A stretch of 64,000 bases of DNA, taken from assembly GCF_963921235.1 (NCBI RefSeq), contig NC_086108.1, forward strand, positions 81,966,001-82,030,000. The letters are read 5' to 3'. Shown one piece after another: positions 3,406-58,509 of this stretch. The DNA comes from Mobula hypostoma. Taxonomy: Eukaryota. The notes beneath the pieces are model-generated. The model did not search any database. It worked only from the letters and a program-made list of their open reading frames with translations, and had not been told where the DNA came from. How positions within the stretch are numbered: the first letter of the stretch is position 1; each line of letters starts with the position of its first letter. A program made the position numbers and the translations under genes.

Positions 3406-3579
3406 CTACAGTTCTCTCCTCTTCTGGCAGCATATGCCAATGGCTGCTGCACCTTTCCCCTTTCCTGTGTAGGATACCACACAGGTGTTGTCCACAGCAT
3501 ATGCTCCGTGAGTGTGTGACCGGTGGGAATATGCACTGCAACCAGTCAGGGTCCAGCCTTCGTCACATGACACCATCAC
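3406..3579 (-). CDS. PCSK9: PCSK9 exon 12 coding part
   Basis: [18 protein letters not shown]...[11 protein letters not shown]...[12 protein letters not shown] (TAG). Confidence 0.97.
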
Positions 3580-6500
3580 CTGGAAATTAAAGCAAAAAAT
3601 CAACAAGACATCCAAATCTATTAGTACAGGCAAACTCCTGCCTGGAGGACTAAACCCCTTATTTCAACTCAGCCAGTAGAAATTATGGGATCATGCCAAG
3701 CCAGATACTTTTAAAATTACAGGATGGCCAAGTCCAACCAATATAAGTCAAGCAAGCTTAAAAATCAAAACCAAGGTTCCTGATGTTATTTTAAATTAAA
3801 TAAGAATAATATGCAATTCCCTTAAGAAGGAAATGTAAAATATTCAGTGCAAATTTTTTATTTATTGGTACTATTCAATGCTACTGGTTTTTATGCATCT
3901 AATCAGATTTAAGAAGAGCGTTGGCAAATGGGAAATATGTTGCTGCTGTCTCTCAACGAATCAGTGGTTAATATTTGATTTAGATAAATGATCTGGCTGC
4001 TTGCCTGGTAACTGCATTATTTTTGCAAATCCATTTAACAATATATAGAAAACAATCCTCGGGTTCAAGATTGTGTTACTCATTGTTTTCCTGTAGAAAA
4101 TCCACTTTAACAATGGAAATGTTTTGCAATCCCTTTCCTGCATGTCCATCCCTAGAGTAAAGACTTTAGAAAGAACTTTGAATGTTTAGAATATAGTCTT
4201 ACCTTTTCCATTTGGCCTGTGGAATGTTGTTCCTTCACCTTGCATACAAGACTTGGAGCTCGGCAACAGGTAGCATGTGAGATTGTCTCCTTTTGCCCAA
4301 GACACTTCTTGTTTTCATGAGGCATTGTTGTATCACTGAATGCTGAAAGGGAATGGGAGCTGCAGCCTGCGAGCAATAGGAACGTTGTTTATTTCCTTTG
4401 GAATCACTTTCCTAAAATGACTTCCAGAAAAAACAACTTCACTGATTCTTTGCATGCATTGGGACTATGCAATGACAGAGCTTCCACGCTAGGACCATCA
4501 GACACAAAGGCAGTTACTTCCCCAAGCCATTAGAGTGATCAACAACTCCACCCATTAACCCAGTGCACCATCACTACTTTATCACTCCTGTCAGTCATCT
4601 TAGGTGCAGATATTCCTGTACCCAGAGTCACATTATGTACATACAATCAGTCTATGTATAAGCTAATCTTATGTATTTAAGTTTATTGTATTTTTATGTT
4701 CATGCTTTTTTTTTTATACTGCATCAGATCCGGAGTAAGTCATTTCACTCTCCTTTATACTTGTGTGTTGAAGAATAACAATAAATAATCTTGAATCTTA
4801 GGAAGTTAGTCAAATTATTCCTCTCAGTTTAAAGATTTTTTTATATATATAGCTACATAGGACTGTTCATGTTCCATGTAGTTTAAGATTTTCCAAAGCT
4901 CTGAAGTATGTGTTTCACGAGGATTGTGTACGGACTGTGAAGCCTCTATTATTGATGAAATACATCGGGTTTCTCCAACACAATTCTGCAGAATGCACAG
5001 GTTGTATGAGAGTAATTAAGTTATTATTCAAGAGGCTGCACAGTGCCTTACAGTCACAATTCTGTTTAGCTAAAGGATACTGCTTCACTCCCACTTTATT
5101 TTATAAATCACTGAAGGGGTTTGGTGGAGCTTCATCTCCCCTCTGTGTATTCCTGTTCATCTTTTCCCAACATTCCCATCTCTCTGATCTGAGCTTTCAA
5201 AGTCTGAGGCCACAGCAAAGGCAACATCTTTGTAATTAGAAAAAGAAAATGCTGGAAGCTGTCAGCAGTTCAGGCAGAATCTGTGGTTAAGCATCAGTTG
5301 TTTTTCTATCCATAGATGCTGCCTGACCAGCTGGGTGTTGCTAACATTTAGTGCTATTTCAAATTTTAAAACTATACAGACATTTGATTTTCAAAATGCC
5401 GGTTTGATTGACCATACAGAACCCATAAGCCAGAATTATTTAAGCCAAGGATCACTATCAATAGCTTTAAAATTATGTTTCTGAAGATCAGTTTCTACCT
5501 AAATGATACCTGTTTGATAGAGCATATATGTACAAGATTAACCTAAAATCTAGCTCATAATCTATTGATCAATTTTGTCTCTAGTGATCGACCATTAACT
5601 TCATCTCGCCACCATATAGGCACTGGGCTTTCATGGCTGTTCAGCAAAAGTGGCCAGCGTGATGCCTAACTCCAAATAATCCTGGAACCTCCAGCCATGG
5701 CACTGTGAAACAGGAAGTGCATGCAGGCACCCTGAATGGATTATAGCAAGACCAGTAATTATACTCATTGTCTCAGTGCAGAGTTGAATCTGGAACCTGC
5801 ACACAATTTGGTACAATTATCCACCTCTGTTCCTTGACAAAAATTGGCAAAACTCATCTGCTCGGCTCTTTGAATTCATTCCTAACGTTTGAACTTGATT
5901 GTTCAGACTATAATACATAGGAACAGAATTAAGCCATTTGAGTATGTTCCACCATTCGATCATGGCTGATTTATTTTTCCTTTCAACCCATTCTCCTTCT
6001 TCCTGTAACTTTTGATGCCCTTACTAATCAAGAACCTATCAACCTCTACTTCAACAACAGGAATTCTGCAGATGCTGGAAATTCAAGCAACACACATCAA
6101 AATTAACCTCTACTTCAACTCTACCAAAAACACTTGGCCTCCACAGGCTTCTGTGGCAATGAATTCCACAGACTCACCAACCTCTACCTAAAGAAAGCCC
6201 TCCCCCTTTGTGTTCTAAACAGACATCCTATTCTGAGGCTATTCCCCTCTGGTCCTAGACTCTCCCACTATTGGAAACATCTCCATTTCTACCCTATTTG
6301 GGTCTTTCAATATTCAATAGGTTTCAATGAGATCCCCTTCATTCTTCTAAACTCCAGCAAGTATAGGCCCAGAGCCATCAAATGCTTGTTATAGATGTCA
6401 GAGTTAGGACATCTCTCACTCCCATACAGCCACATTTCTCAGGACGTTGCTTACCAGTGAGGACAAAGTCCTTGTGTGGACAGCCTGCCATTTGTGTGGT

Positions 6501-9500
6501 GCCGTCATCAGCCACTGAACTTGCGTTGACGAGGCATTCAGTTCTTGGCCAAGTGCAGCACCTGGCAACTGCATAAACCCCACGACTCCCAACAGCATTA
6601 TGAGCGACACACTTCTTCTTGCCTTGGTCTTCCTGGGATATTTATGTAGAATACAAAGAGAATTTCATTTACAAGGAAACAGATGACCTGAATTACCAAA
6701 AATTGCCACTGCAATTGCAGGAATTATTTTTAACACGGACTTTGAAGTTGGCATTTAAATGCAAGTAGTACTGTTTTTTAAGGTTGTTCCAGTAAAATGA
6801 TCGTTTCAAAATCCCTAAATCTAATGTTGCTAATACCCTTGGAAGCCTGTTCTCCCTTGATAATAAATCTAGAGTAGGCCCTCTTCAGCAAAGGTGATTG
6901 TCAAATAAGACTTAAGTATAATCTTCTGTTGTTAATCTATTGGCACTGTTGTAAACAGTCCTCCCCAGTAAACCTCATAACGAATTCCAGCACTCTGAAT
7001 ACATTCTCCAGTGTCTTGGTGCTTATACAACATGCAACCAATCAAGCATGAGGAGCAAGTAGCAAAACACGAAGTTTTGAGGCTATGGAATTTCTGCCCT
7101 CTTGTTCTTTCACAATGATTTATTGGGCAAAATACAGGTGGTTTGCATTGGGATGCTGAACTATTTAACAATAGTAATAAACTGATGCACTGGGAAGAGG
7201 GTAGAGCACTGGTTGGGGAGCCAGGGTACACCATGTGCTCTACCCTGATCCACTACTCATCACCATTAAGTTGCATTCAATTTGCTGAAACTGTCTGATT
7301 TATTTAGACCCAATTCTGAAAGACTTTTTTTTAAATACTGGGAAGTTGGTACCGTACTTTACCACCATAATGTGTTATGACCTGCCTTCATCTATTAACC
7401 ACAATTTACCACCATTGCCCTTATTGCATCCACAAAATGTGTTTTAACATTCTAGTATCAACTCAATATCTGCATCCATCATTTTCTCCCTAGCCTTTGT
7501 TGATGTTCCCTTTTCTATTAGTCATTGCAATTGAGATCGTGATCAATATGTTGCAATGTGAACTTTCTCCATGTTTTACCTCTATATGTTCCCCTCTTCT
7601 CTTTCCATTTTTTGAGAAACTTGAACAACTGAACATTTCCTCATTCTTGTCACAGTGCACTGTAGCTTTGGCTGAGTGTGCAAGCCCTGATATCTTTGAC
7701 CACACGGTCCTGCACAACAGCTGGTTCTCTGTAAACAGATGGCACATCAAAGTTCAAAGTGAATTTATTATTAAAGTACACATGTCACCATATACAGCTG
7801 TGAGTTTCATTTTCTTCTTGCCGCCATACTGAATAAATCTATAATAGAATAATAACCATAATAGAATCAATGAAAGACTGCACCAACTTGGGTGTTTAAC
7901 CAGTGAGCAAAAGATGCAAGGTGGCCCTGGTGAACCATGGCAACAGTTTTCAGTCTATGTACATCCTTTAATAGCCTTGCTGTACCTGCCACATTACCTT
8001 TTGTTAGAACCACATCCAGATGTTGTGGTTCATCTGTTAGCAAATGGCACACTCTTATAACAAAAGGAAATGAAGGGATTAGAGGAGGTAACAATACAAG
8101 CTAATTGCACAGACCAAACAAAGTGCAGGAGTGTTAGGCATGAAAGTGAAAGTTGCTCTCTTAATTTCTTAGGGAACTTTACAATTAAATGACTTGCTGA
8201 ATCTGAATTATTGAGAATCTCCTCAATCATTGCAGGGAATGGAGGGAAGTGGATCATGTACAGGCAGAAGAAATTTAGTTTAATTCAGCATAATGTTTGG
8301 TACAAACATCATGAGCTGAAGGTCCTACTCCTGAGCTGTACTGTTCTATGCTCTTTGTGTTTTCTAGATGTAATTCAGAAGTGGTACAACAGATTACTAA
8401 TGACACATGCTAATCTACATGTTGGAATTTTGTACACTTACTACTTTTTACAATTAATTCAAATAGATAATATTGAAACTGAATCGGTATTTGCTGTTTA
8501 CTCACCTGTTAGTACAGGCGAAGACAATCTTGCAATTCTGTTGGGCGTGACTAAACGCTGATCCTCTGGAAACCAGATGTCATTGATTGCTTTCTTTGTG
8601 GAATAATGAATTAGTCTCTGGCGTAGTTCAGATACTGTGATGTTAGGGTCAGTGCTCATTATCATCGCCGAAATGCCTACAGAGGAAAAAGCAAGTCAAA
8701 AAGGTATCCAATGAATAACATCAACTTTTTTTTAATGGTTTCAGTAGATGAGATAAACTGGACCACGTAATTGCCTCTGACAAAAATGTGCTGTTGGGAG
8801 CAGAAAAGGACACATGGATGTCCTCCGACTTGGTCATTCAAAAGATATTAAAATACAAGATTATGAACATGCTTATACACATCCATTGTATTCAATATTT
8901 AGGATGGACCTGTGTTTTTTCTCAAAGCTGGCAAATTTAAGGTGCTGGATGTGGGGCACAGAGCCTTTCGCCTAGAGGAAAGGCTGTAAATTTCTCTTGT
9001 ACCTGATAGTAAGAACAGAAGAGTAACAGCCCAAGGAACAACTGTAGGTTTATCTCCAGTGACAACATTTAATAAGAATTAAGTTATTAATTGTGCTCCA
9101 GCGTGATCACTACAGACAAGAGCTGCAGAGTGAGGAGATCTGAACAAGAAGCTGTAAAAGTGTCCACCTTGGTTGTCAAGCCCTGGGCCACACATTTCCA
9201 CAGGAATGTGACTGAATCTGGCAGCTGGCATGGAAAATGGAACCTGTGCATCCCAAAAGGCTGTGTCAACTTTCCATGAGGCAGTGGCTATTTGAGCACT
9301 AGCATTTCATCAGTCCCACCGCCATCAGCGCTGTGTACCTGCCACTTGAGCTGCTGCCTGCGATGTTCCGCTATTCGAGGTGAAGCACGTGACACAATCA
9401 CTAGAAGCACTGACAATGTCATCGCCAGGAGCAAAAAGATCAACACAACGACCGAAGTTAGTTCCTAGGGTTCCACTTGTGGTCGGCTGATTGTCACGAT

Positions 9501-12500
9501 TTGTGGCACCTACAGTGATGACCTGAAAAAGATAATGAAGTGGTCATTTTTATTTATTTAGGGATACAGCATGCTAATAACCTAACAAGCCCACAACATA
9601 CCCAATTAAATTCATGTGACCAATTAACCATATGTCCTTGGAACATGGGAGGAAACTGGAGCACCTGGAGAACATACAAACTCTTTCCAGTTCCTGTATA
9701 ATATATCTGATACTTTGTTCACTTTTATGTTGCTTGGATATGACATCTCCATCCATTAGTTGTAATTAAAATAGTTTTCAAATCCTCCTCCATCCAAATC
9801 AGCTTGACTTGATATAATCAGAACATTTTTAAACTTTTTAAGCTAACTATTAACCTTCCTGTTTTAGGAATTCTGCTGTATGCCCTCCTTAGGCTATTAA
9901 GCCAGTAAAGCAGTGCAAGGGACAGGCAAATTGACTGATGTAAATCATTGGCAAGTGAAGATTTTAAAAAAGCATAGGGTGAGCAGTTATAAATATAAGC
10001 ATGTAAACCATGCCCATTTTAAACACAGTGTATACAATACAAACACAGCATATACAACCATAGGAAGGGGCACTTTCCAAGAACCCTTCACTTCTACACC
10101 CCAACAACCCTGGGTTGTCAATGATTGTGTAACGCTGAGACGCAAAGTTCAATCCTAATACCTGTAAGTTTCCTTAAACCAACTGAACTATCAACCCTGC
10201 TCGTTGCAGTCAGAAAGACAAATGTACCTCCGGTTCTGAGGCAGGTGAATACAAACAGGCGTCATCCTTGTAATTTCCTGCAGCTGCGATCAATGCTACG
10301 CCTGTCCATGCTAATTGTCTGCAGGCTGAGTTCAGAGTCTGACTAAATCTTCCAGCGAAGGGCAACAGCACAATTACAGGTTGGTAAGGCTGAACCATCA
10401 GAGTTTTCCTGATGAACTCCAAACCTAAAAAGTAGAGGCAGAGTAATTATCTTTCGAGTCTCCTCCTCCTCAATTTCTGTCCCACCTGCTCAGATCTCAG
10501 TTCTGGCAATGGAATGAATTCAGATTCTGTTAACTCTTATGGATAAAAATGCACACCTCAATTTTAACAGAACGACAGGATTTTCTCTTTGATTTGAATA
10601 CACTGTCTGTTAGAAGCTGTAAGTAGAAGGCAGCCTATCAGGGGTCAGAAGATGTTTATCTGTGTGAGTGGTTAGAGAGGAAGGAAGGGAGTTTGCTTTG
10701 CTGCTTTGTTCTGCCGAGCATTGTGGGTATGCTCTGTTGGTGCCAGAATGTGTGGCGACACTTGTAGATTGCCCCCAGAACACCCTCTGCTGTGTTAGCT
10801 GTTAGTCCAAAATGATGCATTTCACTAGGTTTCAATGTATGAGATACAGTGCCTATAAAAAGTATTCACCTCTCCCCGCCCCCTGAAACTTTCATGTTTT
10901 ATTGTTTTACAACATTGAATCACAGTGGATTTAATTTGTCTTTTTTTGACACTGATCAACAGAAAAATACTTTTTCGTGTTAAAGTGAAAACAAATGTCT
11001 ACAAAGTGATATAAGTTAATTATAAATATAAAACAAAATAATTAATTATGTAAGTATTCATTCCCTTCAAGTCAGTATTTAGCAGATGCACCTCTGGTAG
11101 CAATTACAGCCTTGAGTCTGTGTGAGCAGGTCTCTATCAGCTTTGCACATCTGGACACTGCGATTTTTCCCTATTCTGCTTTACAAAACTGCTCAAGCTC
11201 TGTCAGCTTGCATGGAGAATGTGAGTGAACAGCTCTTTTAACTCTCAATTGGATTGCGGTCTGGACTCTGACTTGCTCACTATAGGACATTAACTTTGAT
11301 GTTTTCATGCCATTCCTGTGTAGCTTTGGCTTTATGCTTGGGTCATTGTCCTGCTGGAAAACAAATCTTCTCACAAGTCGCAGTTCTCTTGCAGACTGCA
11401 TCAGGTTTCCTCCAGGATTTGTGTGTATTTTGCTGCATTCATTTTACCCTCTACCTTTACAAGCCTTCCAGAACCTGCAATGAAGCATCCCCACAGCATG
11501 ATGCAGCCACCACCATGCTTCACAGTAGGGGTGGTGTGTTTTTGATGACGTGTGGTGTTTGGCTTACAACATAGTGTTTAGTCTGATGGCCAAAAAGCTC
11601 AGTTTTGGTTTTATCAGACCATAGAACCTTCTTCCAGCTGACTTCAGAGTCTCCCACATGCCTTCTGGCAAAATAGCTGATATTTCATGTGTTTTTTTTA
11701 ACAGTAGCTTTCTCTTTGCCAGTCTCCCATAAAGGTGTGACTGGTGAAGCACCCGAGTAACGGTTGTTGTATGTGCAGTCTCTCCCATCTCAGCCACTAA
11801 AGCCTGTAACTCCCTCAGAGTTGTCATAGGTCTCTTGGTGGCGTCCCTCACTAGTCCCCTTCTTGCATGGTCACTCTATTTTTGAGGACAGCCTGCTCTA
11901 GGTAGATTTACAGCTGTGCCATATTCTTTCCATTTCTTGATTGACTTAATTCAGTGACTTTTTCTTGTATCCACCTCCTGACTTGTGTTTTTCAAAACAA
12001 CCATTTTGTGCAGCTGCTTGGAGTGTTCATTTGTCTTCATGGTGTAGTTTTTGCCAGGACACTGACTCACCAGCAGTTGGACCTTCCAGATACAGGTGTA
12101 TTTTTACTACCATCAATTCAAACACCTTGACAGCACACAGGTGATCTCAATTTAACTAATTGTGTGATTTCTAAAACCAACTGGCTACACCAGTGATGAT
12201 TTGATGTGTCATATAAAGGGGGTGAATACTTAGGCAATAAATTATTTTGTATTTTATATTTGTAATTAATTTAGATCACTTTGTAGAAATCTGTTTTCAC
12301 TTTGACATGGAGTTGAATACTTTTTATGGACACTGGGTATTTAAACTGGAGTCTTGAATTTTGAGTACACTGGTGTGAAATGCAGGAAAACCAGCTCCCA
12401 AGCCAGTTGTGTCAAAAGCTCAATTCAGGGAAAATGATACAAGAAAAATGGAGCAGGCAGGGTGATCAGTACTAAAAGGTGGCCAAGCTTCAGAGAAACT

Positions 12501-15500
12501 AATCATTGCCATGGTATAAAATGGCTAATATCAGGGCACAAAATGGTGAACTTTTCTGGTTTTAAGAATAACATTATTTTTGAAATGTGATCATAAAATT
12601 AAAAACTAAAACTAAAATTGCTAATATCAGGTATGCCCCCACCAAAGGTGCAAAGTTCACTATCAGGACTTTGATCTCTAAAAGCTGTTCCTGCAAAAGC
12701 ATACTCTCCTATGGATTTGTGAATGTACACCTAATGCTAGAACTGTGCAACAGAGCGGAAACACTTCCACAGAAAGCTCCTAGATGTCCCACGTACAAGA
12801 CTGATCCTGCCATTTTAAAAGTGATGGCATTTAGGTCCACATTCAAATTATGAAGAAAGGTGCATATATATGGTCCAGTTTAACATTTAAAAAAAAGGAA
12901 AATATCAAAAATCATAACATTAATAGATAAATTTATTTTTGTGAATTAGTTGTCTCCTCAACTCTGTATTCCACTCTTCAGTTCTTTTATTCAAAATTAT
13001 TCTCATTTGGCTTCAGTCCTTTGAAACTGTTTTATATTTTTCTCTGGCCTCCTTGTAAACCAAGCCCTGATAATTTGGAGATGTAAATTATTGTGCAAAT
13101 TTTGTATAAAGATCACTGTAATCTGGGCAATAAAGTAAATGCAAGAATGACTTGATACTGTTCACCCTGTTTCCTCCCTCCCTGGCATAATCCCAATATA
13201 GAAAGCTATTCAGTTATGTCCCAATATAAAGACACTACTCACCCGCCAGTGCTCCACTTACAGTACCCCTTCCCTGGCAATTAAGAATTCTCACAGTGCG
13301 GATATTGGCTCCTTTGGCAACACCAGAGTCGCGCCCACTAACCACACCCGCAGTGTGAGTTCCGTGGCTATCGCATTTACTAGCCTGCAGGAAAAAGAAG
13401 GCAAAACCATCTGGTCATTGGAGAAGCTCTTGAGCGGGAGCCAGATACTACAACTCAGTCTGTGCACCAACAGAGAAATGCAAATAACTTCCACCACAGT
13501 GTTACTCTACACTGCGTCAAGAAGTACCGCCACAAAGAAAATAATTTTGTCCCCATGTATGTTGCTTATCAATTTTTATGGGGCAATCATTATCGTTCCC
13601 GGCAAAGGTTATGAAAATGGAATTGATAGTACTATTAGCAGTGATTAAGCATATTTACATGGAGCACTGCTACAAGAAAACAGCATCCATCATCATAGTC
13701 CTCCACCATCAAGGCCATGATCTCTTCTTGCTACTACCATCCAGCAGGAGGTGTGGAGGCCTTGGGTCCCACACCACGAGGTTCAGGTCTCTGAACCAGA
13801 GTGGATAACTTCACACACCACAACTCTGAACTGATCCTACAACCTGCACAATCACTTTCAAGGACTTTTTACAACTCGGGTTCCCAGTATTATTTTTCAT
13901 TTGCACAATTGTCTTCTTTTGCACATTAGTTGTTTGTCCATCTTTGTTTATGTGTAGTTTTTTAAATAAATTCTATTGTATTTCTTTATTTTCCTGTAAA
14001 TGCCTGCAATAAATTGAATCTCACGGTAGAATATGGCAACACACATGTACTTTGATAATAAATGATACTTTGACTTAGATTTTCCTCAGGCATTTTAATT
14101 TCCTCGTTAGCCAAAGAACTCAAGGATCTTCATCAATGTGGCAAACTGAACCGAGACATTCAGTGATAATACACAAGATGAGCATCTCTAGGGTTTTCTC
14201 CACTTCTGACACCACTATGACTTTCTATCAATAGGTCCGTTTTGACAGTGGCACCAGGGACCTATACACAGTGGGAGATGTAGCAGCTCCCCACCCCTCC
14301 ACTGCCAATAATGTTGGTTTAATCTGCATTTAAAATGCCACTCTGAAAATAGTCAAGTTTAAATTACAATAATTCCCAAAGTAATGACAGTCTCTTGACT
14401 ACCAACTGCAGCTGTGAAGAAGCCATTCACCACCTTAACTTTAAAGGAAACCAAAAATTGGCAATTAGTTTTCAGTAATGTTTTTAAATGGGGGGGGGCG
14501 GAAGTAGAATCCTAAATGCAAGATAGTTTAGAGGGTTTGCTGTGCAAGTACGGGTATGTTAGTAATATTTGGTTGTAGTCTTGAGGTGCGCTTCAATGAA
14601 TCCTTATCTGCCACTTCCCAGTGATCTTTGGAATAAGAAATTAATTATTAAACCAAGATCCAGTTCCTCTGTTCTTTCTGTACAAATCCCCACCCTGAAT
14701 CCAATTAATTACTTCATCGAGGTTGAAAATTTCCAAGTGACTGCGTTACCTGGCGGTAAAACCGAGTGCCATCCTCTTCTGGAATACTTTTGAATTCTGT
14801 TGCAAAAACTTTCCCTTCAATCTCTCGATGGTTGCTCTGTACACTAGTGTCGAGCAAGTAAACTTCTGCCAGTTCACCATCATCTAATGAAATATGCAGT
14901 GAAAGGTTAGTGTATTAAATTACAACCTACCTGGTGAAGGAAAACTGCAAAATGATGTTTTCACACATGGAAATATGATGGGAAATGCCACAAATTGACA
15001 CTGCAGTGCATCTGCCACTCTCGGATGCCAGTTCACAGCATGAAGTTGGGTTTAGTACAACCGATTGTGAGATTAAATTGTCGTGAATTTTGTTTTGTCG
15101 TAGCAGACAAAAATTTTTGCAAGTTGCAGTAAAACATTTGTAAATAATAGTACAGAAGTCGAATAGTTAGGTAGTGTTCATGGACTGTTCACAAACCTGA
15201 TGGCAGAGGGCAAGACTTGAATGTGGGAGCAAATTCACACTAAAGGAGTGTAGCACAAGGATTTTAACTCTATTGTGGGAATTATTGATTGACATAAAAT
15301 TGAAAGTGAAATAAAACAATTAATGATTAATATATACAGTACAAGCAAAAACACAATGTACGATTTCCTAATTATGATAAAAGGACAAGTTAGTTTAGCT
15401 TATCTATTTATTAGTTACTGAAAGCTCTTTATGCATCAAAATAAAGTGGACTCACTTGGTGGGGTGTATTGTTCTGCTGAGTTTCCTGAAGGAACAATTT

Positions 15501-18500
15501 CATTTAGATTCCAAGGGATAGTCTGAGCAAACACAGAGGAGTCTTCTTCAATATACTCAACGTGAGGTAAACTCAGAGCCTGTGCAAAAGATGACACAAA
15601 AAAGCATTTCTAAATACTGTATTTGTCAGAGAAGAGTAAAATGAATAGAAAGACTTGTATTTGTATAGAATATTTCACAACATCAAAGGGCACTCCAAAA
15701 GCAACTTATAACCAATGTACAGTGGTTCTGAAATGTAGTCAGTGTTGCAGTATGGGTAATGTTGCATAATAAACTCTACAAAATGCAGTTTGAAAATGAA
15801 CAGTCTATTTTTGAGTTAATGTTGGTTGACATATTAGTACTGGAGGGAACACATTGATATAACAATGAGTTATTTGTCCATCAACTTGTAATTCAAAAGT
15901 GGGGTATGAAACTAACTGTGCGTCATTCCCTCAGTACTGGGTTGGAGAGTCAGCTATTGATTATGTCACCATGTCTCCAGAGCAGGACATGAATTCATGA
16001 GTTTACTCAAAGGTAAAACCTTGTTGTAACCTATAAAAATGAAGGGAATCATTTTGTCTTGGATCCACACTGAATGCAGTAACCAGCCATATATTGTGTA
16101 TATCAAATGTTTATTGACTTTAATATATTTGTTGAAGCAATCTAAAACCCCTGGAATGAGTTCCTTCAACACTTGGGTACATGTATACATCTGTTCTCCA
16201 TTCGTATGCTTTCTGTTCGTACAAAGAGGTTGCAATGGTGATCTAATATGCAAATATGTATTGTTCTTAAGATTATGTAAATTGTTTTCTCTCTGCCCTC
16301 TTATTTATGTTGGTTTCCAGACATTAATGTATAAATGACACATGTTATGAATAAGAGGAAAGGCAGCAGAAGGCTGACTGACAGGTGACATTCTCCAAAA
16401 CAGTGTTCTGCTGCAGATTTCCCCAACATGGGACAAAACAGGCCCTTCAGCCCACAACGGTGCACTGACATTTTTTAAACCTACCCCAAGATCGATCTAA
16501 ACCTTCTGTCCCACATAGCCATTTAATTTTATTTCCTCCATAAGCTTATCTGAGTCTCTTAAATGTCTGCATCTGACATTTACCCATACTTTCCTTGAAC
16601 CATCTTAAAATTGTGCTCTTGTACTCGCCATTGCCACCCTGGGAAAAAGGCACTGGCTCTCCACCTTATTTATGCTTCTTATCAAGTCATAAGCCTCTTG
16701 CCTCTCATTCTTTTTTGCTCCAAAGAAAAAGGCTCTAGTTCACTCAATCTCTCTAGTCGAGGTAACATCCTGGTAAATCTCCTCTACACTCTCTCTAAAG
16801 CTTCCACATCCTTCCTATAATGAAGTGAAGTGTACTGAACAAAATACTCCACTACGCAATAACCTCAGCTAGGAATCTAAGCATTGTTATTATACCACCA
16901 TTTACATGCATTAAACAGTTCAAATGAACACATCAACAGGTAACATTTGGTCCTACCGCTCTGCCACCCTCATATGTAACACATTGCTGCTCCTTGTTCA
17001 TATTTAACCCACCTCAATCCCCTCTTCCCGAGGGCCCACCCAACACTGAATGAAGGGGACTTTACCAGGTCCAGCATATCACTGCTCATTTTTATGACAA
17101 AGCCTTTGAAGACCTCATGGAATACCAGGACAAGTTCAGACATATAGCCATGCTTGGCGGCCTTGTTACGAAGCTTGCGTATGGTGTGCTCTGCCTGGGA
17201 TTTCTCTGTGTTTTCTTTAAGCACCACTATGTACTGGCCAGGCACCCTCCAAGCATCCTGAAAATACAAATGAGGAGGAGTTATTATAGTTAAGTATTCT
17301 TGAAAAAAGGATTCTAATCTTAACTATGAATCAGGACATTGTTTAATTGGTCAGTACTTCAATCTTCTGTTAATTAACCAGACCTTCTGTAGTTCATCAC
17401 ACCACCAAGCAGAAATACTCAATTAATTAATAATGGATTTGATCCCCGAATGAGATGTAATTACAAAATAATTCCATTGTACTTGTTAGAATGAATAACT
17501 TTCTGTTCCAACTTGCATTTATAAGGTATATTGCATGTATTAAAGCAAAACAGTTGTGAGAGCTTTATTGAACAACATGTAACACAAGTCTTACAAGGTA
17601 ATGTAAGATTTGTTTTTATTATTGCATGTGACTCAGGCAAGAATGCACCCTTATGGAGGCTAAGGGGACACCTGAGTGACTTTCTAGATTATTTCAAAGG
17701 GCAAAAAAGAGTTATAACATTTGCTGTCATTCTGGAAACAGAAGGAGGAGGCCAATTGGATTTATGAGACTGTTTCACGACATCCTTAAAATCATGGCTC
17801 AACCAATCTTGGTGTCAGCACCTTTCCCGCATTCTCTACTGTCTTCTGACTCCCTTGTACTTGTTAGAACTCAACAACTCTGCTTCCAGAACTCTCCGAG
17901 GTAGAGGATTCCAAAGAGTCCCAGTACTTTGAAAGAAGAAATATCCCATCATCTGCCTAAAATCGATGACTGTTTATTCTGAAGATATGCCCTTGAGTAA
18001 TAGATTCCCACCCCACCCCCACCCCCGCTCAGTGTTGATGCTAAGAGAACATTTCACTATCAATTCCCTCACAAAATCTGTTTTTCAAAATCTTTCAGTT
18101 TTCTATTCCAGATGAATTACATCTCAGTCTTCCAGGCTCCAAAGAGTATTGCCAAACTGCTCAACCTTTTGAGAATAACCCTTTGTGTATTGTCTCCAAT
18201 GTAATCACAAGCTTCATTTAGTAGGGAGTTTAGAGTGTACACTATCATTTGTCTCACTGTTAGAGCTGCATCAAAACAATCCTTTTTATAATCCATTGCA
18301 AGAAAGACAATGTTCTATTAGCCTTTGCAATTACATACTGTGGTATGCTAATTTCTGTAGATAAATTTGTATTTCAACCTTTTATAATTTCACTCAAATT
18401 AAATAATTCCTTTTTCATTCTTTGTTTCATTTCCTTTCAACTTCACATTTCCTCACATTCTCCATCTACCAACTCTTGCTCACTTGATCTATATTCTTTT

Positions 18501-21500
18501 GCAGTTTCAAAACTCTTCAACCTAGTTATCCTGGTGTCAGCAAATTTGACTACTGTACATTCAATCCTTGCATTCAAGTTACTAACCCCTCATCTGCTGC
18601 TTTCTGCCTTCTTTCCCCTTTGTTTCCACTAATCATCCACCAGTCTGCTATTCAGGTCTTCAGTAAAACAGCAGAACAGGATTGGGCCATTCAGCCCATC
18701 AAGTCTGCTCCACCATTCTATCATGGCTCATTTATTATCTCTCTCAACCCCACTCGCTTACCTTCTTTTTGTAATCTATGACGCCCTTACTAATCAAGAA
18801 ACTATCAGCTTCCACTTTAAATATACTCAAAGACTTGGCCCCCACAGCTTCTCCCTCAGGCTAAATAAATTCCTCCGCACCTATTTACGGAAGAATAGAT
18901 CCTTGTATTCTGAGGCTGTGCCCTCTGGTCCTAGACCCCCTAGTAATGGGAAACATCCTCTCCATGCCCACTGTATCGAAGCTTTTCAATATTCGATAAG
19001 CTTCAATGAGATTCTCTTCCCCCTCCCCCCATTCTTCTAAACTTCAGTGAGTACAAACCAGAGCCATTAAACAATTCTAATACACTAACCCTTTCATTCC
19101 CAGGATCATTCTTGTGAACCTCCTCTGGACCCTCTCCCATACCACCTTTTGAGAATCCTGCATGAGAACACCCACATTTTGCTCCACATTGAGAGAACAG
19201 CCTACACATTCATTCCGTCTATCAAGTTGCATGATCATACACTTTGCTACGCTGTATTCCATCTGCCACTTCTTTACCCATTCTTCTAATTTGTCCTAGT
19301 CCTTCTGTAGATTCCCTCTTTCCTCAACACTACTTGCTCCTCCACCTATCTTTCTATTGTCCACAAACTTCGCCACAGAGCCATCATTTCCATCATCTAA
19401 ATCATTGAATTTAGCACGCAAAGAAGCAGTCCCAACAACAACACCTGCGGAACACCACTAGCCATTGGCAGCCAATCAGAAGAGGCTTGCTTTGCCTCCT
19501 TCCAGTCAGCCACTGTTCTATCCATGCAGGCATCTTTCCTTTGATACCAGGGGCTTTTAACTTGTTTAGCCGCCTCATGTGTGGCACCTTCTTAAAGTTC
19601 TTCTGAAAATCCAAGTACACAACATAGACAATTCTCCTTTGTCTATCCTGCTTGATATTTCTTCAAAGAATTCCACCGGATTTGTCAGACCTGATTTCCC
19701 CTGAAGGAAACTATGCTGATGTTGGCCTATTTTACCATGTTCCTCCAAGAACCTCAGGACCTCATCCTTAATAATGGACACCAGCATCTTACCAACCACT
19801 GCAGTCAAGCTAACTGCCCTATAATTTCCTGCCTTTTGCCTTCCTCCCTTATGAAAGAGTGGAGTAACATTTGGAATTTTCTATTCCTCCAGAACTTGCC
19901 TGTATTATTCTAAAGTGTGGATATAAAGGCTATAAAGAAATTCCAGCAGATTCAATTCTCTGGAACAACAAACTATCTTCTGGAGGAACTCTTGAGTAGA
20001 AGAAGCTGCTTCACTGGTAGATTTCCTCCAACAGATCGTGTGCTGCTCCACATTTCCGCACCTGAATTCAGTCCACTGGTGAGGAATTCAGGGCAGAACA
20101 CAACATTAATATTGGAAGCACTTACACATCTGGGGCTATTGCCCTCTTCCAAAACAACTAATGAAGGGTCTCTGCCCGTCGACTGTACCTTTTCCAATAG
20201 ATGCTGCCTGGCCTGCTGCGTTCACCAGCAACTTTTATGTGTGAACCTTTATTTATCCAAAGTTTTCAAGACTTAAATTGGTACTTCTCTTTATTTCAAC
20301 GCATGCCCCATTAACAACCAACCTTTCTTTGCATAATCTTCTCTTGCATTGTTCGATAATCTGCTTTGCGCTTTTTTTTAATTAGAGGAAAGCCCTCCTG
20401 ACTTTAGATGAAACTGAGTAATTACTCTAAATGGAAATAAAATTCCGAATAGTCTTAATCGAAATACCTGTGGTCGGTGAAATGCTTTGGGGGGGCGGGG
20501 GGCGGCTGAAAGACAACGTTTCTTCCAAAATAAAGAGCCCAGTATCTCTGGCCCAACAATAAAACAGGGATACAGGGTTTTTTTAAAAAATCAATTCCCA
20601 ATATCTTTCAGCACCACCCTGTTGCAGTCAGTCAGTCTTTTATTGAAACAGCTACTACACCAGATTATCCTGGATGTCAGGAGCGTAACAATAATAAAAG
20701 GACTCGGTTAACAAAAACACGGATGGTACAGACAGCTATGGGGGAGCAAGGCAGAACGGTCAGCAGAGGGGCACACCCAACGTTGCATGAGATACATTAT
20801 CACTGAGCTGAAACGTTAACTGTTCCTCTCTCCGCCTAAGCTATCTGACCTGCTGGATAATTTTCGGCATGTTCTGCTTTTGTTTGAAACTTCCAACATC
20901 GAAACAATCGTTTATAGATGGGTTATTGCTGATGACCCCATGTCAACACGTCCCCCTATTACGTTACTTTTGCCGAATTACCGTTTACCAGCATTCATTG
21001 TTGCGGACGCACAGAGCGTCCGGAGTTAGGATAGAGCCAACAATTTGAAACCTTCTAGATAATCTAACTTTAATTTACGTTTTATTCGGACCCAAGCAAG
21101 AAGCAGTTTGCACATTTTTGCCCACTTAAGAAACGAACCACAAATATGAAGTGTACATAGTTCGCTTTCTTCCTCGGCCACATCCTTCACTCGCTTCATC
21201 AATGAGGATGTCGCCTCGCACAGAAAGATTTCAAGCTGAGAAGCAAAGTTTGAAGCAAAAGCGCGCACAAATGGCGGGGTTGGAACATCGTTATAAAAGT
21301 GGAAACAGTGAAATGCTCTTAAGACACGAGATAAACTGAAGAACTGCAGAATGCGGAGAAACTCTAGGCGGAGCTTACTATGTTGGAACGGTGGAAGGGT
21401 GCAGGTTTGTTCTGATTCCTCCTCTCAGCAAAAGAACCCGGGAGAGTCTCCCCTTCATCGATCATCTGCTCCCCTGCAAAGTCCGACGCAACCTGAAAAG

Positions 21501-21546
21501 ATGCAGAGCAGAAGAGAATCAGTAACCGCGCCGAGAAGCAGCCCAT
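3406..21546 (-). CDS. PCSK9: Proprotein convertase subtilisin/kexin type 9, complete 12-exon gene (spliced CDS 1977 nt, 658 aa)
   Basis: Manually assembled exons 21546-21379, 17257-17066, 15579-15456, 14883-14750, 13384-13243, 10424-10228, 9522-9339, 8676-8506, 7728-7580, 6632-6455, 4366-4203, 3579-3406 join in frame with GT-AG introns. Contains signal peptide, prodomain ending VFAQ, catalytic D (LLDTS), H (DSHGT), oxyanion N (AAGN), S (SGTSQ) and 18 Cys of the C-terminal domain. Confidence 0.98.
4203..4366 (-). CDS. PCSK9: PCSK9 exon 11 (164 nt)
   Basis: [57 protein letters not shown] acceptor, GTAAG donor. Confidence 0.96.
5915..6390 (-). mobile_element. CR1 LINE 3' fragment in intron 10, with a 49-nt Penelope-end insertion
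   Basis: Same 3' end sequence as the other CR1 copies in the window; insertion 6056-6104 is flanked by a 15-bp duplication. Confidence 0.8.
6455..6632 (-). CDS. PCSK9: PCSK9 exon 10 (178 nt)
   Basis: [62 protein letters not shown] acceptor, GTAAG donor; missed by the ORF track. Confidence 0.96.
7580..7728 (-). CDS. PCSK9: PCSK9 exon 9 (149 nt), C-terminal domain module 1
   Basis: [14 protein letters not shown]...[22 protein letters not shown] acceptor, GTAAA donor. Confidence 0.97.
8506..8676 (-). CDS. PCSK9: PCSK9 exon 8 (171 nt)
   Basis: [59 protein letters not shown] acceptor, GTGAG donor. Confidence 0.97.
9339..9522 (-). CDS. PCSK9: PCSK9 exon 7 (184 nt), LDLR-binding loop and catalytic Ser
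   Basis: [64 protein letters not shown] acceptor, GTACA donor. Confidence 0.98.
10228..10424 (-). CDS. PCSK9: PCSK9 exon 6 (197 nt), oxyanion Asn
   Basis: [24 protein letters not shown]...[23 protein letters not shown] acceptor, GTACA donor. Confidence 0.98.
10847..12335 (-). mobile_element. Degenerate Tc1-family (IR/DR, Passport-like) DNA transposon in PCSK9 intron 5
   Basis: TA|CAGTGCCTATAAAAAGTATTCA left end and TGAATACTTTTTATGGACACTG right end; inner and outer direct repeats; transposase remnants [10 protein letters not shown] (ATG 12040), [31 protein letters not shown], with frameshifts and deletion. Confidence 0.92.
13243..13384 (-). CDS. PCSK9: PCSK9 exon 5 (142 nt), catalytic His
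   Basis: [50 protein letters not shown] acceptor, GTGAG donor. Confidence 0.98.
13670..14080 (+). mobile_element. Rex1/Babar-like LINE 3' fragment
   Basis: Remnant ...LLPSSRR... C-terminus and an AT-rich 3' UTR ending in AATAAA plus a TTGAC-type tail; related to 59450-60170. Confidence 0.65.
14750..14883 (-). CDS. PCSK9: PCSK9 exon 4 (134 nt), catalytic Asp
   Basis: [47 protein letters not shown] acceptor, GTAAC donor. Confidence 0.98.
15456..15579 (-). CDS. PCSK9: PCSK9 exon 3 (124 nt), autocleavage site
   Basis: [44 protein letters not shown] acceptor, GTGAG donor. Confidence 0.98.
16430..16850 (-). mobile_element. CR1 LINE 3' fragment (intron 2)
   Basis: Similar to the CR1 3' ends at 45000-45530 and 60720-61220. 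Confidence 0.75.
17066..17257 (-). CDS. PCSK9: PCSK9 exon 2 (192 nt), inhibitor I9 prodomain
   Basis: CAG acceptor; [15 protein letters not shown]...[18 protein letters not shown] donor. Confidence 0.97.
18674..19905 (-). mobile_element. CR1 LINE ORF2 fragment (intron 1)
   Basis: RT remnants [19 protein letters not shown] and [13 protein letters not shown]. Confidence 0.9.
21379..21546 (-). CDS. PCSK9: PCSK9 exon 1 coding part: signal peptide and start of prodomain
   Basis: [23 protein letters not shown]...[10 protein letters not shown] then GTAAG donor; end resembles human ATFHRCAK. The start codon choice is inferred. Confidence 0.85.
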
Positions 21547-21653
21547 ACTGGAGAGCGTGTATGAGAGCGGCTGGTGAGATGTGGGACAAAAGTTCTTATC
21601 CCTGCGAAAGCTGGTGGTAGACTCGTTCAGTGGTTTCTGGTACATGGTGCCGG

Positions 21654-21661
21654 TTTATATA
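21654..21661 (-). promoter_or_regulatory. TATA box candidate of the PCSK9 proximal promoter
   Basis: TATATAAA on the minus strand, ~60 bp downstream of the SRE and ~110 bp upstream of the ATG, in a locally CpG-rich region. Confidence 0.65.
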
Positions 21662-21719
21662 CCTGTGCAGACAGGTGTGAGCTCGCCAGCCCCGCGTCAT
21701 TAGGGTCCCTGAGCTGAGA

Positions 21720-21729
21720 ATCACGCCAC
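21720..21729 (-). promoter_or_regulatory. Sterol regulatory element (SREBP site)
   Basis: GTGGCGTGAT on the gene strand (ATCACGCCAC on +), identical to the human PCSK9 SRE as I recall it. Confidence 0.9.
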
Positions 21730-21756
21730 CGCTTACACATCGGACCATCCATTCAT

Positions 21757-21769
21757 ATCAATCGTTACC
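21757..21769 (-). promoter_or_regulatory. HNF1-like site 27 bp upstream of the SRE
   Basis: GGTAACGATTGAT vs consensus GTTAATNATTAAC (4 mismatches), in the same position as the human PCSK9 HNF1 site. Confidence 0.7.
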
Positions 21770-22369
21770 TGACGGAGGAAAGCCCACAGCGATCAAATTA
21801 CAAAGAAGGAACCGGGAAAGACAGCCCCTTTTCAATCAATAGGCCTCTAATCCCTCCAAATTGACGTCGCAGTACTGTTTGAACATCAACCTTGCTGCCC
21901 AAGGCGAGAGGAAGTGCTTTCAAATAAATATTATTCCCTCCTCTAACACCTGGCTATTTTCTGTTGTGCACATTATTTTGAAAGAATCTAAAAAATATGT
22001 GCGGGAAACTTGTGAGGCTTATCTGTGGTGGGGGAGAGGATCCTGTTGGCACTGGCCACACCTGGAAAGGAACGCTCATTGGTGAGCTGAGGTTAAACAA
22101 CAAAAAAATCCCTTTACTGTGGGGTCTTCACCTTTCTTCTACCTCCAGAACTGGCAATCTACCTGGACCTCTAGATCTGGTCTCTTCCCCTCTCTGGATC
22201 TATTCATTGCTAATGGTCAACACGCCAATGACTGTCTCATTTTTCCCTTTCCTCTTACTGACTCTAACTTCCCCACCTCTGTCACTGGTTCAATAAGAAC
22301 CAAGCCCACGAATGTGATGTTGTGATGGACTGGCAACCTCAGCTGTATCTGCCTCCCAAGCACCCCCTC

Positions 22370-56605: not shown

Positions 56606-58509
56606 GACATGCTTCTCATTGCTCATATCCTGGAGGAGATACAGGAGCCTGAAGGCGCAAACTCAACGATTCAGGAATAGCTTTTTCTCTTCAGCTATCA
56701 GATTTTTGAATGGACATTGAACCCATGAACATTACCTCTACTTTTTTTTCCCTGTTTTTGCACCACTTATTTAATTTAGCTTTTTAAAATGTATATATTA
56801 CTTACTGTAATTTACAGATTGTTATTGTTATGCATCACACTGTACCGCTGCCGCCAAATTTCACGTCGCATGCCAGTGATATTAAACTTGTTTATGATAT
56901 TGGACTGAAGACTTGGACAGTGTAAGGAGGTGGGGATAGAGGGCGGTAACAAAACTGCGAATTGGCAAGTGTATGATGAGCTGAGGCGGATAAAGTTGCC
57001 GTTGTTCACTTCTGTCAACATATGCATCGAAACAGAATTTAAGAACTGGTTAAAATCGTTGCAGAAATTACGACTGGAATCGCAGCAGTTAAAGAAAGAA
57101 CTGGTGAGTTGATTTGGGCCTTTACAAGTTCTGGACTGACTTCCCTGCTGACTTGTCCGTCTGCTGCAGAAAAAGTTGCGGTGATGCGCTGGCGATGGAA
57201 CAAAGTGGCTGCTGTAAATTTAGACTTGGCTGGTGATAAAGTGTTTGCGGAATGTGTGTCATCTCGTCAAAGAACGTTAAGTGAAAGAGTATATTTGGAA
57301 ATCAGTTGGTCAGAGAATCATTCTTTCATCATTGTTAGCTTTCCAGATTACTGAAGGAAGTAAATACATTTGTGGAGTTTAATGCAGCAGCTGGTTTGAA
57401 TCCGCGGGGCGTAACGAAGTGAGTGGGAAGGAGAGACGCCACAGCCCAGGGTGAATGGTTGATGAGGGATTTTAAACTCGGCTGATCCCGAGAGATGGGA
57501 GTCATTAACGTATATCGTGTATGTTTTCGTTGATAAGGTCGGGATTCTGTTACAATTCCTGGGGGCAGTTCTTTTCCGGTGATCAATGGGTTATTTGTGT
57601 GTGTTTCTGGCCGTCTTTTCCTGCAGATGTGGACGTTATTCCGGTTTGTTATCTTGGCCGGTGACAACTGCAGCTCTGCCTTTGCTTTCTCTGTAGTGCC
57701 TGTAGTCACCGAGCATTACAGTTGCTGCTTCCTATGTCGCGGCAGTGCAATTGCTCGCGGATATGAAAATACCATCGAGCGAATGGGAGGGAGGCTGTCA
57801 TCGTTGCGAAACACTTTGAATTAAATTGTGTTTAGCTGTATCTGCCACCAAGCACTTTGTAATACCGCTTTAAACAGTCCTGTACCTTATTAAATAGATT
57901 GCCTCCATGTTAGAATTTTAATCCCATACAACCTAGAGAATCGAGCTAATTTCAGCCCTAGCGCGAAATTTAATCTTCCATCGAATACTACGTAAATGCT
58001 CTCTAAAACCCCACCAAATGTGTTATAACTTCTCGAAATTTCGATAAAAATTCCAATTTAGGAGCCCGCGCACATAGAGTTAATAGTTACTATAGAGTAT
58101 TAATTTTGTTCCTCGTTCGAGTTTTAGAAACCAATCAAATTTGTAAGTACGAGACACGTCCTCGCTACACGATGCTGCCTAAATCCACAGCAAAAGGGAA
58201 TTGTAGAGACAAGAGAGCACTTCTGATCCAAGTGCATGAGCGCTGTTTTCCTTCCTTCTGACACAGCTTGCTTCACTCTTCGCCCAGTTCCGGGACGTGT
58301 CCGGTCTCAAATACAGTACCCATTTACAACGAAAAACAATGCGAGTTAACGTAGCAGGCCAGGCAGCATCTCTAGGAAGAGGTGCAGTCGACATTTCAGG
58401 AAGTTAAATCTCTTCGCAAGTAACTTTGCAGAACAAAATATGCTTATTGGACCCAGTCTGCCATTTATGCTCCATTTGCACCTCAGTTTGCTATATACAG
58501 TAGCACCAT

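What the first reader, a model, noticed from the sequence alone, without database searches (positions are those of the whole stretch)
21720..21769. Human-type HNF1 - HINFP - SRE promoter module conserved with the same 27-bp spacing
Seen: the gene strand reads GGTAACGATTGAT-atgaatGGATGGTCCGATGtgtaagcg-GTGGCGTGAT. Recalled human PCSK9 promoter: GTTAATGTTTAAT-cagataGGATCGTCCGATGgggctctg-GTGGCGTGAT. The SRE is 10/10 identical, the spacer is 27 nt in both, and the central 13-mer (21738-21750, where a HINFP site is described in human) matches 12/13. Inference: the SREBP2/HNF1A/HINFP switch behind statin induction of PCSK9 dates to the jawed-vertebrate ancestor and is constrained in spacing.
Basis: partly seen in the sequence, partly recalled or inferred. 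Interest (0 to 1): 0.8.

Follow-up and report, generated by a model that had tools for sequence, protein, structure and literature searches.

The report
Ancient PCSK9 sterol switch in rays
A ray's intact PCSK9 gene carries the same three-part promoter sequence, at the same spacing, that makes the human gene respond to cholesterol and statins, so this switch likely predates the split of sharks and rays from bony vertebrates, although its activity in the ray is untested and its liver-factor site is weakened.

Summary
21769-21720 (- strand) lies 174 nt upstream of an intact 12-exon PCSK9 gene, identical in protein to Mobula hypostoma PCSK9 (658/658). I checked the human sequence against published oligos rather than memory. 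By hand: SRE 10/10, central 13-mer 12/13, HNF1 site 9/13, linkers 4/14, no gaps, 27-nt spacer in both; 35/50 is far beyond chance (about 1e-9). In the one related ray with a full difference list, the module has none of the 39 listed changes, against 15 in the 168-nt coding exon 1. Homology is near certain (about 0.95) and implies a jawed-vertebrate origin. Three qualifiers: the ray HNF1 site matches the consensus at only 8/12, worse than 40 background sites in this window; unchanged spacing is suggestive only (P 0.02-0.5 under neutrality); binding and sterol response are untested. No teleost, shark or tetrapod promoter could be fetched. Searches found published conservation only for human, mouse and rat. 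Verdict: a real, apparently unreported deep orthologue of a known module.

The parts
21720..21729 (-). Sterol regulatory element, identical to the human PCSK9 SRE; -183..-174 from the ATG (human -346..-337)
21738..21750 (-). Central 13-mer, 12/13 to human; its GTCCG core (21745-21741) is the stretch altered in a published HINFP-site mutant, all 3 altered bases are wild-type here; 11 nt from each flanking site
   Evidence: by-hand comparison
21757..21769 (-). Degenerate HNF1-type site, 9/13 to human, 8/12 to consensus; keeps 4 of 5 bases changed in the Li 2009 mutant and 2 of 3 in the Wang 2020 mutant
21770..21810 (-). 41-nt upstream extension with no listed change in run X9; not human-like over the 14 nt that can be compared (3/14 by hand)
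21874..21989 (.). Second block with no listed change in run X9 (116 nt); candidate upstream enhancer, content not resolved
21654..21661 (-). TATA box-like TATATAAA, 58 nt downstream of the SRE; no listed change in X9
21379..21546 (-). PCSK9 coding exon 1 (168 nt from the ATG); spliced to exon 2 in an RNA-type contig
   Evidence: (tables 7, 8)
3406..21546 (-). PCSK9 gene: 12 coding exons, 11 GT-AG introns, 658 aa, no internal stop
20751..22000 (.). CpG-rich promoter region (o/e 0.74-0.97 in 500-nt windows starting 20751-21501; window median 0.26)

Best explanation
This 50-base stretch is the ray's counterpart of the human PCSK9 proximal promoter module, likely inherited from the last common ancestor of jawed vertebrates, and it would switch PCSK9 on when sterols fall: SREBP2 is predicted to bind the identical SRE, helped by a likely co-activator (HINFP in human) at the central site and by a weakened, likely HNF1-type site upstream. 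Shown: sequence, position, spacing, an intact spliced gene, constraint among rays. Inferred: ancestry (about 0.95), SREBP binding and sterol response (about 0.75), HINFP as the central factor (about 0.6), HNF1 still binding (about 0.55), selection on the spacing itself (about 0.6).
For: Same gene, orientation, order and spacing as human; 35/50 ungapped with motifs kept (31/36) and linkers at background (4/14), P=2e-4 with reader-drawn limits and P=0.007 with limits from published sites. 9 of 11 bases altered in three published loss-of-function mutants are wild-type in the ray (P=3e-4). In human, SRE and HNF1 mutations cut activity to 13.8% and about 5% and nearly abolish sterol repression (PMC2781434). 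Run X9 has 0 of 39 listed changes in 21719-21810 against 15 in 168 nt of coding exon 1 and 13 in 173 nt of proximal promoter/5' UTR; P about 0.02-0.04 for the 50-nt module, 0.0005 for two empty runs of 92 nt or more. TATA box, CpG-rich context and a spliced exon 1 mark this as the promoter.
Against: No functional data. The HNF1 site is not above window background. The ray comparison is about one branch: most changes are shared by X9, X12 and X18; 11 rows were hidden (by my tally private to X12 and X18) and 5 of X9's 44 differing letters are unplaced. Among rays the linkers and 41 nt upstream are invariant too, so that test does not single out the motifs. No intermediate lineage was examined. 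Similarity to human ends at the module's edges, and no GC box lies in 21546-22060 although human has an Sp1 site 35 bp upstream. In PMC7026728 HINFP knockdown did not alter a drug response that the site mutation did alter.
Confidence: 0.65

Rival explanations
1. The module is homologous, but the upstream site no longer binds HNF1 in rays: it is vestigial or read by another liver factor (it contains ATTGAT, recalled as a ONECUT/CUX-type core), so the ray switch would be SREBP plus the central factor only.
For: 8/12 to consensus and no perfect half-site; not among the 40 background-level sites; 4 of the module's 5 motif differences fall here.
Against: 9/13 at the exact offset has P=0.002; 4 of 5 bases of the Li mutant are kept; no listed change in X9; position 8 is closer to consensus than in human.
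Confidence: 0.3
2. The central 13-mer is kept for a factor other than, or in addition to, HINFP.
For: Conservation runs 4 bases upstream and 3 downstream of the 5-nt core used in the published mutant; HINFP knockdown and site mutation gave different results in PMC7026728; the reviews read trace the HINFP assignment to one paper, which was not held.
Against: The one difference gives GGTCCG, which I recall as the histone H4 HiNF-P core; the same hexamer stands in a mouse H4 promoter primer, where it is not labelled as such.
Confidence: 0.3
3. The module is homologous and constrained, but serves another input in rays (for example SREBP1c and feeding, or non-hepatic expression) rather than sterol feedback.
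For: The human SRE also takes insulin input through SREBP1c; tissue of the RNA contig is unknown.
Against: The SRE is base-for-base the sterol-responsive human element and keeps its partners' order.
Confidence: 0.12
4. Chance or convergent assembly of common motifs.
For: An SRE-like 10-mer alone is at background in 64 kb; the 18 specified bases of core+SRE occur 12 times in metagenome contigs.
Against: Those 12 have 6-9 of 30 upstream identity, GC 0.54-0.74 and no HNF1-like site, and come from 241 million records; here the match lies within 230 nt of the orthologous start codon, P about 3e-6 after correction.
Confidence: 0.03

Closest known systems
Human PCSK9 proximal promoter module: HNF1 site (-386..-374), HINFP site, SRE (Li et al. 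2009, PMC2781434; Li and Liu 2012, seen only as cited)
   Same: Same gene, order, orientation, 27-nt spacer; SRE 10/10; central 13-mer 12/13
   Different: HNF1 site 9/13 and further from consensus; module 163 nt closer to the ATG; TATA box 58 nt downstream; no GC box nearby; flanks unalignable; function untested
Mouse and rat Pcsk9 promoters
   Same: Reported to keep Sp1, HNF1 and SRE sites perfectly
   Different: Mammals only; the ray extends the module to cartilaginous fish but changes 4 HNF1 bases and shows no Sp1 box
Typical SREBP target promoters (SRE beside Sp1 or NF-Y)
   Same: SRE close to a co-regulator site
   Different: No GC box or CCAAT in 21546-22060; the partner arrangement is the PCSK9-specific one that Li 2009 called unusual
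FoxO3 insulin-response element overlapping the human HNF1 site
   Same: Same position (overlap stated)
   Different: The TGTTTA centre of the human site (recalled as the FoxO core; Tao 2013 not held) differs at 3 of 6 bases in the ray, so this element likely is absent

Membership tests
PCSK9 HNF1-HINFP-SRE promoter module | Lies just upstream of a PCSK9 orthologue, same orientation | tested here: met
PCSK9 HNF1-HINFP-SRE promoter module | SRE GTGGCGTGAT | tested here: met
   10/10
PCSK9 HNF1-HINFP-SRE promoter module | HINFP-site core between HNF1 and SRE | tested here: met
   Core 5/5, 13-mer 12/13; (sequence only)
PCSK9 HNF1-HINFP-SRE promoter module | 27-nt HNF1-SRE spacer | tested here: met
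PCSK9 HNF1-HINFP-SRE promoter module | Strong HNF1 site (GTTAATNATTAAC-like) | tested here: inconclusive
   9/13 to human (P=0.002 at that offset) but 8/12 to consensus, below window background
PCSK9 HNF1-HINFP-SRE promoter module | Upstream Sp1 box (present in mammals; reported dispensable for the sterol response) | tested here: not met
   No GGGCGG/CCGCCC in 21546-22060
PCSK9 HNF1-HINFP-SRE promoter module | Binding of SREBP2, HNF1A, HINFP and sterol-dependent activity | not testable with these tools
   Needs reporter, EMSA or ChIP
PCSK9 HNF1-HINFP-SRE promoter module | HINFP, HNF1A and SREBP2 genes present in the ray | not tested
   No genome held and no tool-given query sequence
Pan-gnathostome conserved element | Present in sharks, chimaeras, ray-finned fish and non-mammalian tetrapods | not testable with these tools
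   No vertebrate genome collection; metagenome scan gave no vertebrate hit among 12

The most novel reading that the evidence does not exclude
The ancient core of PCSK9 control is the SRE plus a 13-base central site held in fixed register for over 400 million years, wider than the published 5-base HINFP core and possibly read by an unidentified partner of SREBP2; the strong HNF1 site and its overlapping FoxO element, the focus of human drug work, would be later mammalian tuning. The central site would then be the under-studied lever for uncoupling statin induction of PCSK9 from that of LDLR.
Probability: 0.3. Interest if true: 0.65.

Novelty: new member of a known kind. Interest (0 to 1): 0.45.

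Why it matters
Statins raise PCSK9 through this module, which blunts their effect. A ray copy shows which bases selection has kept since jawed vertebrates arose: the SRE and the little-studied central site more than the HNF1 site. That is independent evolutionary support for a site whose assignment to HINFP traces to one paper in the reviews read, it dates SREBP control of PCSK9, and it supplies a natural variant for a cheap reporter test. The mechanism itself is already described in human.

Tried and rejected
No whole genome is held, so no genome-wide background and no search for the factor genes. Metagenome scan for core+SRE, hoping for vertebrate host DNA: 12 hits, 0 of 12 with upstream similarity. 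Sequencing runs: no RNA holder on record; the RNA-type contig X11 begins at 21578, which does not show a start site. HINFP consensus not found in held papers (passages in 17, 36, 37), so it stays recalled. Six primary papers were not held: Li and Liu 2012, Miele 2005, Jeong 2008, Dong 2010, Nirala 2021, Tao 2013. Literature searches for a non-mammalian PCSK9 promoter comparison (mostly listings, one search returned no paper with the key term among 25 listed) showed none; the zebrafish paper read by passages does not compare promoters. Earlier scan findings: nothing relevant. Rejected: the upstream in-frame ATG at 21645 as a conserved start, since it lies 8 nt behind the TATA box and a 1-nt insertion at 21590 in X9, X12 and X18 shifts its frame. 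Rejected: extension of human similarity beyond the 50 nt (3/14 upstream by hand). TGACG half-sites near the module were not pursued.

Full report
Observation. The - strand of 21769-21720 reads as reported: a 13-nt HNF1-like site, 6-nt linker, central 13-mer, 8-nt linker and a 10-nt SRE, 27 nt between the outer sites.

The gene. An exon at 9328-9543 matches human PCSK9 structures at E about 1e-28. Exon 6 is 94-95% identical to stingray and sawfish PCSK9 and 77-86% to shark and other vertebrate top hits. tblastn places 12 exons in order. A model with 11 GT-AG introns gives 658 aa without internal stop, 658/658 identical to Mobula hypostoma PCSK9 X1 and 649/658 to M. birostris. The ATG is at 21546, so the SRE is at -183..-174. 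A TATATAAA lies at 21661-21654 and the region is CpG-rich (o/e 0.74-0.97 against a median of 0.26 over 254 windows). An RNA-type contig covers 21378-21578 and continues into exon 2 sequence, so exon 1 is spliced as modelled; its tissue and start are unknown.

The human side, from print. Published coordinates give the same 27 nt. By hand: HNF1 9/13, linker 2/6, core 12/13, linker 2/8, SRE 10/10; 35/50 without gaps. Upstream of the HNF1 site identity drops to 3/14.

Chance. P(>=35/50) is 9e-10 at 0.28 background, 3e-6 over 4000 placements. Sites defined beforehand by publications (HNF1 13, HINFP core 5, SRE 10) match 24/28 against 11/22 elsewhere, P=0.007. Of 11 bases altered in three published mutants, 9 are wild-type in the ray. 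The core+SRE pattern is unique in the window, expected 0.01. Singly, the SRE at 1 mismatch (3 found, 1.7 expected) and the HNF1 site (not among 40 sites within 3 mismatches, 37 expected) are unremarkable; the evidence is the combination and its place.

Constraint among rays. Of 24 runs listed I laid 4 on 21340-22060. Three are other organisms at 90-95% likeness. For X9, one contig spans the stretch and all 39 counted substitutions are shown: 15 in coding exon 1 (168 nt), 13 in 21547-21719 (173 nt), 0 in the module, 0 in 21770-21810, 3 plus 2 indels in 21811-21873, 0 in 21874-21989, 8 in 21990-22030. P(0 in the 50 nt) is 0.02-0.04; two empty runs of 92 nt or more arise in 0.0005 of permutations. 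Limits: most changes are shared by the three runs, so this is about one branch; 11 rows were hidden, by my tally 8 of X12 and 3 of X18; 5 of X9's 44 differing letters are unplaced, likely near the ends (inferred); linkers are invariant too at this distance.

Spacing. Linker identity is 4/14 (95% CI 0.08-0.58). With the substitution-to-indel ratios seen in X9 (8:1 to 13:1), no indel in 14 nt has probability 0.02-0.5 depending on the distance assumed. Fixed spacing is therefore suggestive, not shown.

Mechanism. In human, SRE and HNF1 mutations cut activity to 13.8% and about 5%, both are needed for sterol repression and SREBP2 activation, and Sp1 is not. Reviews place HINFP between them, recruiting NPAT and TRRAP for H4 acetylation (passages; the primary paper was not held). 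I infer the same logic in the ray: SREBP2 on the identical SRE (about 0.75), a co-activator at the central site (HINFP about 0.6), and a weaker HNF1-type site (binding about 0.55). The ray HNF1 site has no perfect half-site, and 3 of its 4 differences fall in the TGTTTA centre that I recall as the overlapping FoxO element, which therefore likely is not shared. The single change in the 13-mer gives GGTCCG, recalled as the histone H4 HiNF-P core; held papers did not confirm the consensus. One result cuts against a simple HINFP reading: site mutation, but not HINFP knockdown, blunted a drug response.

Ancestry. Two lineages on either side of the deepest jawed-vertebrate split share the module at the orthologous position, so parsimony puts it in their ancestor (split date over 400 million years, recalled). 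No shark, chimaera, bony fish or non-mammalian tetrapod promoter could be fetched: no genome is held and the metagenome scan gave 12 hits, none vertebrate-like.

Novelty. Li 2009 reports conservation in human, mouse and rat only. Searches, mostly seen as listings, showed no comparison outside mammals; the library lacks most subscription papers, six relevant primary papers were not held, and genome-browser tracks were not available, so 'unreported' is provisional. This is a new, distant member of a known module rather than a new kind of element. Interest 0.45.

Noticed in passing
window 21874-21989: Second 116-nt block with no listed change in X9 (X12's piece over 21849-21993 has one other letter, at 21990); holds a FOX-like TATTTAT at 21930 and an E-box at 21952 (motifs recalled). 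Possible upstream liver enhancer.
   Followed up: partly
window 21645-21547 (-): In-frame upstream ATG 8 nt behind the TATA box, giving a 33-aa extension. Skate PCSK9 entries (P0005, P0121, P0122) begin at the homologous Met with a 28-aa extension, and P0005 comes from a 2666-nt contig holding the whole frame; a 1-nt insertion breaks the frame in X9, X12 and X18. May mark an alternative upstream start or an annotation artefact.
   Followed up: partly
window 57250-58500: Second CpG-rich patch (o/e 0.85-1.17), the highest in the window; possibly another promoter or a young repeat.
   Followed up: no
window 22000-64000: The 44 ORFs of 110 aa or more include many that look like reverse-transcriptase fragments of LINE elements (by eye, not scanned); no other host gene recognised upstream of PCSK9.
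   Followed up: no
window 21770-21810: 41 nt directly upstream of the HNF1-like site are invariant in X9 but unlike human; contains GGGCTTTCC, recalled as kappa-B-like. Possibly a ray-specific addition to the module.
   Followed up: no
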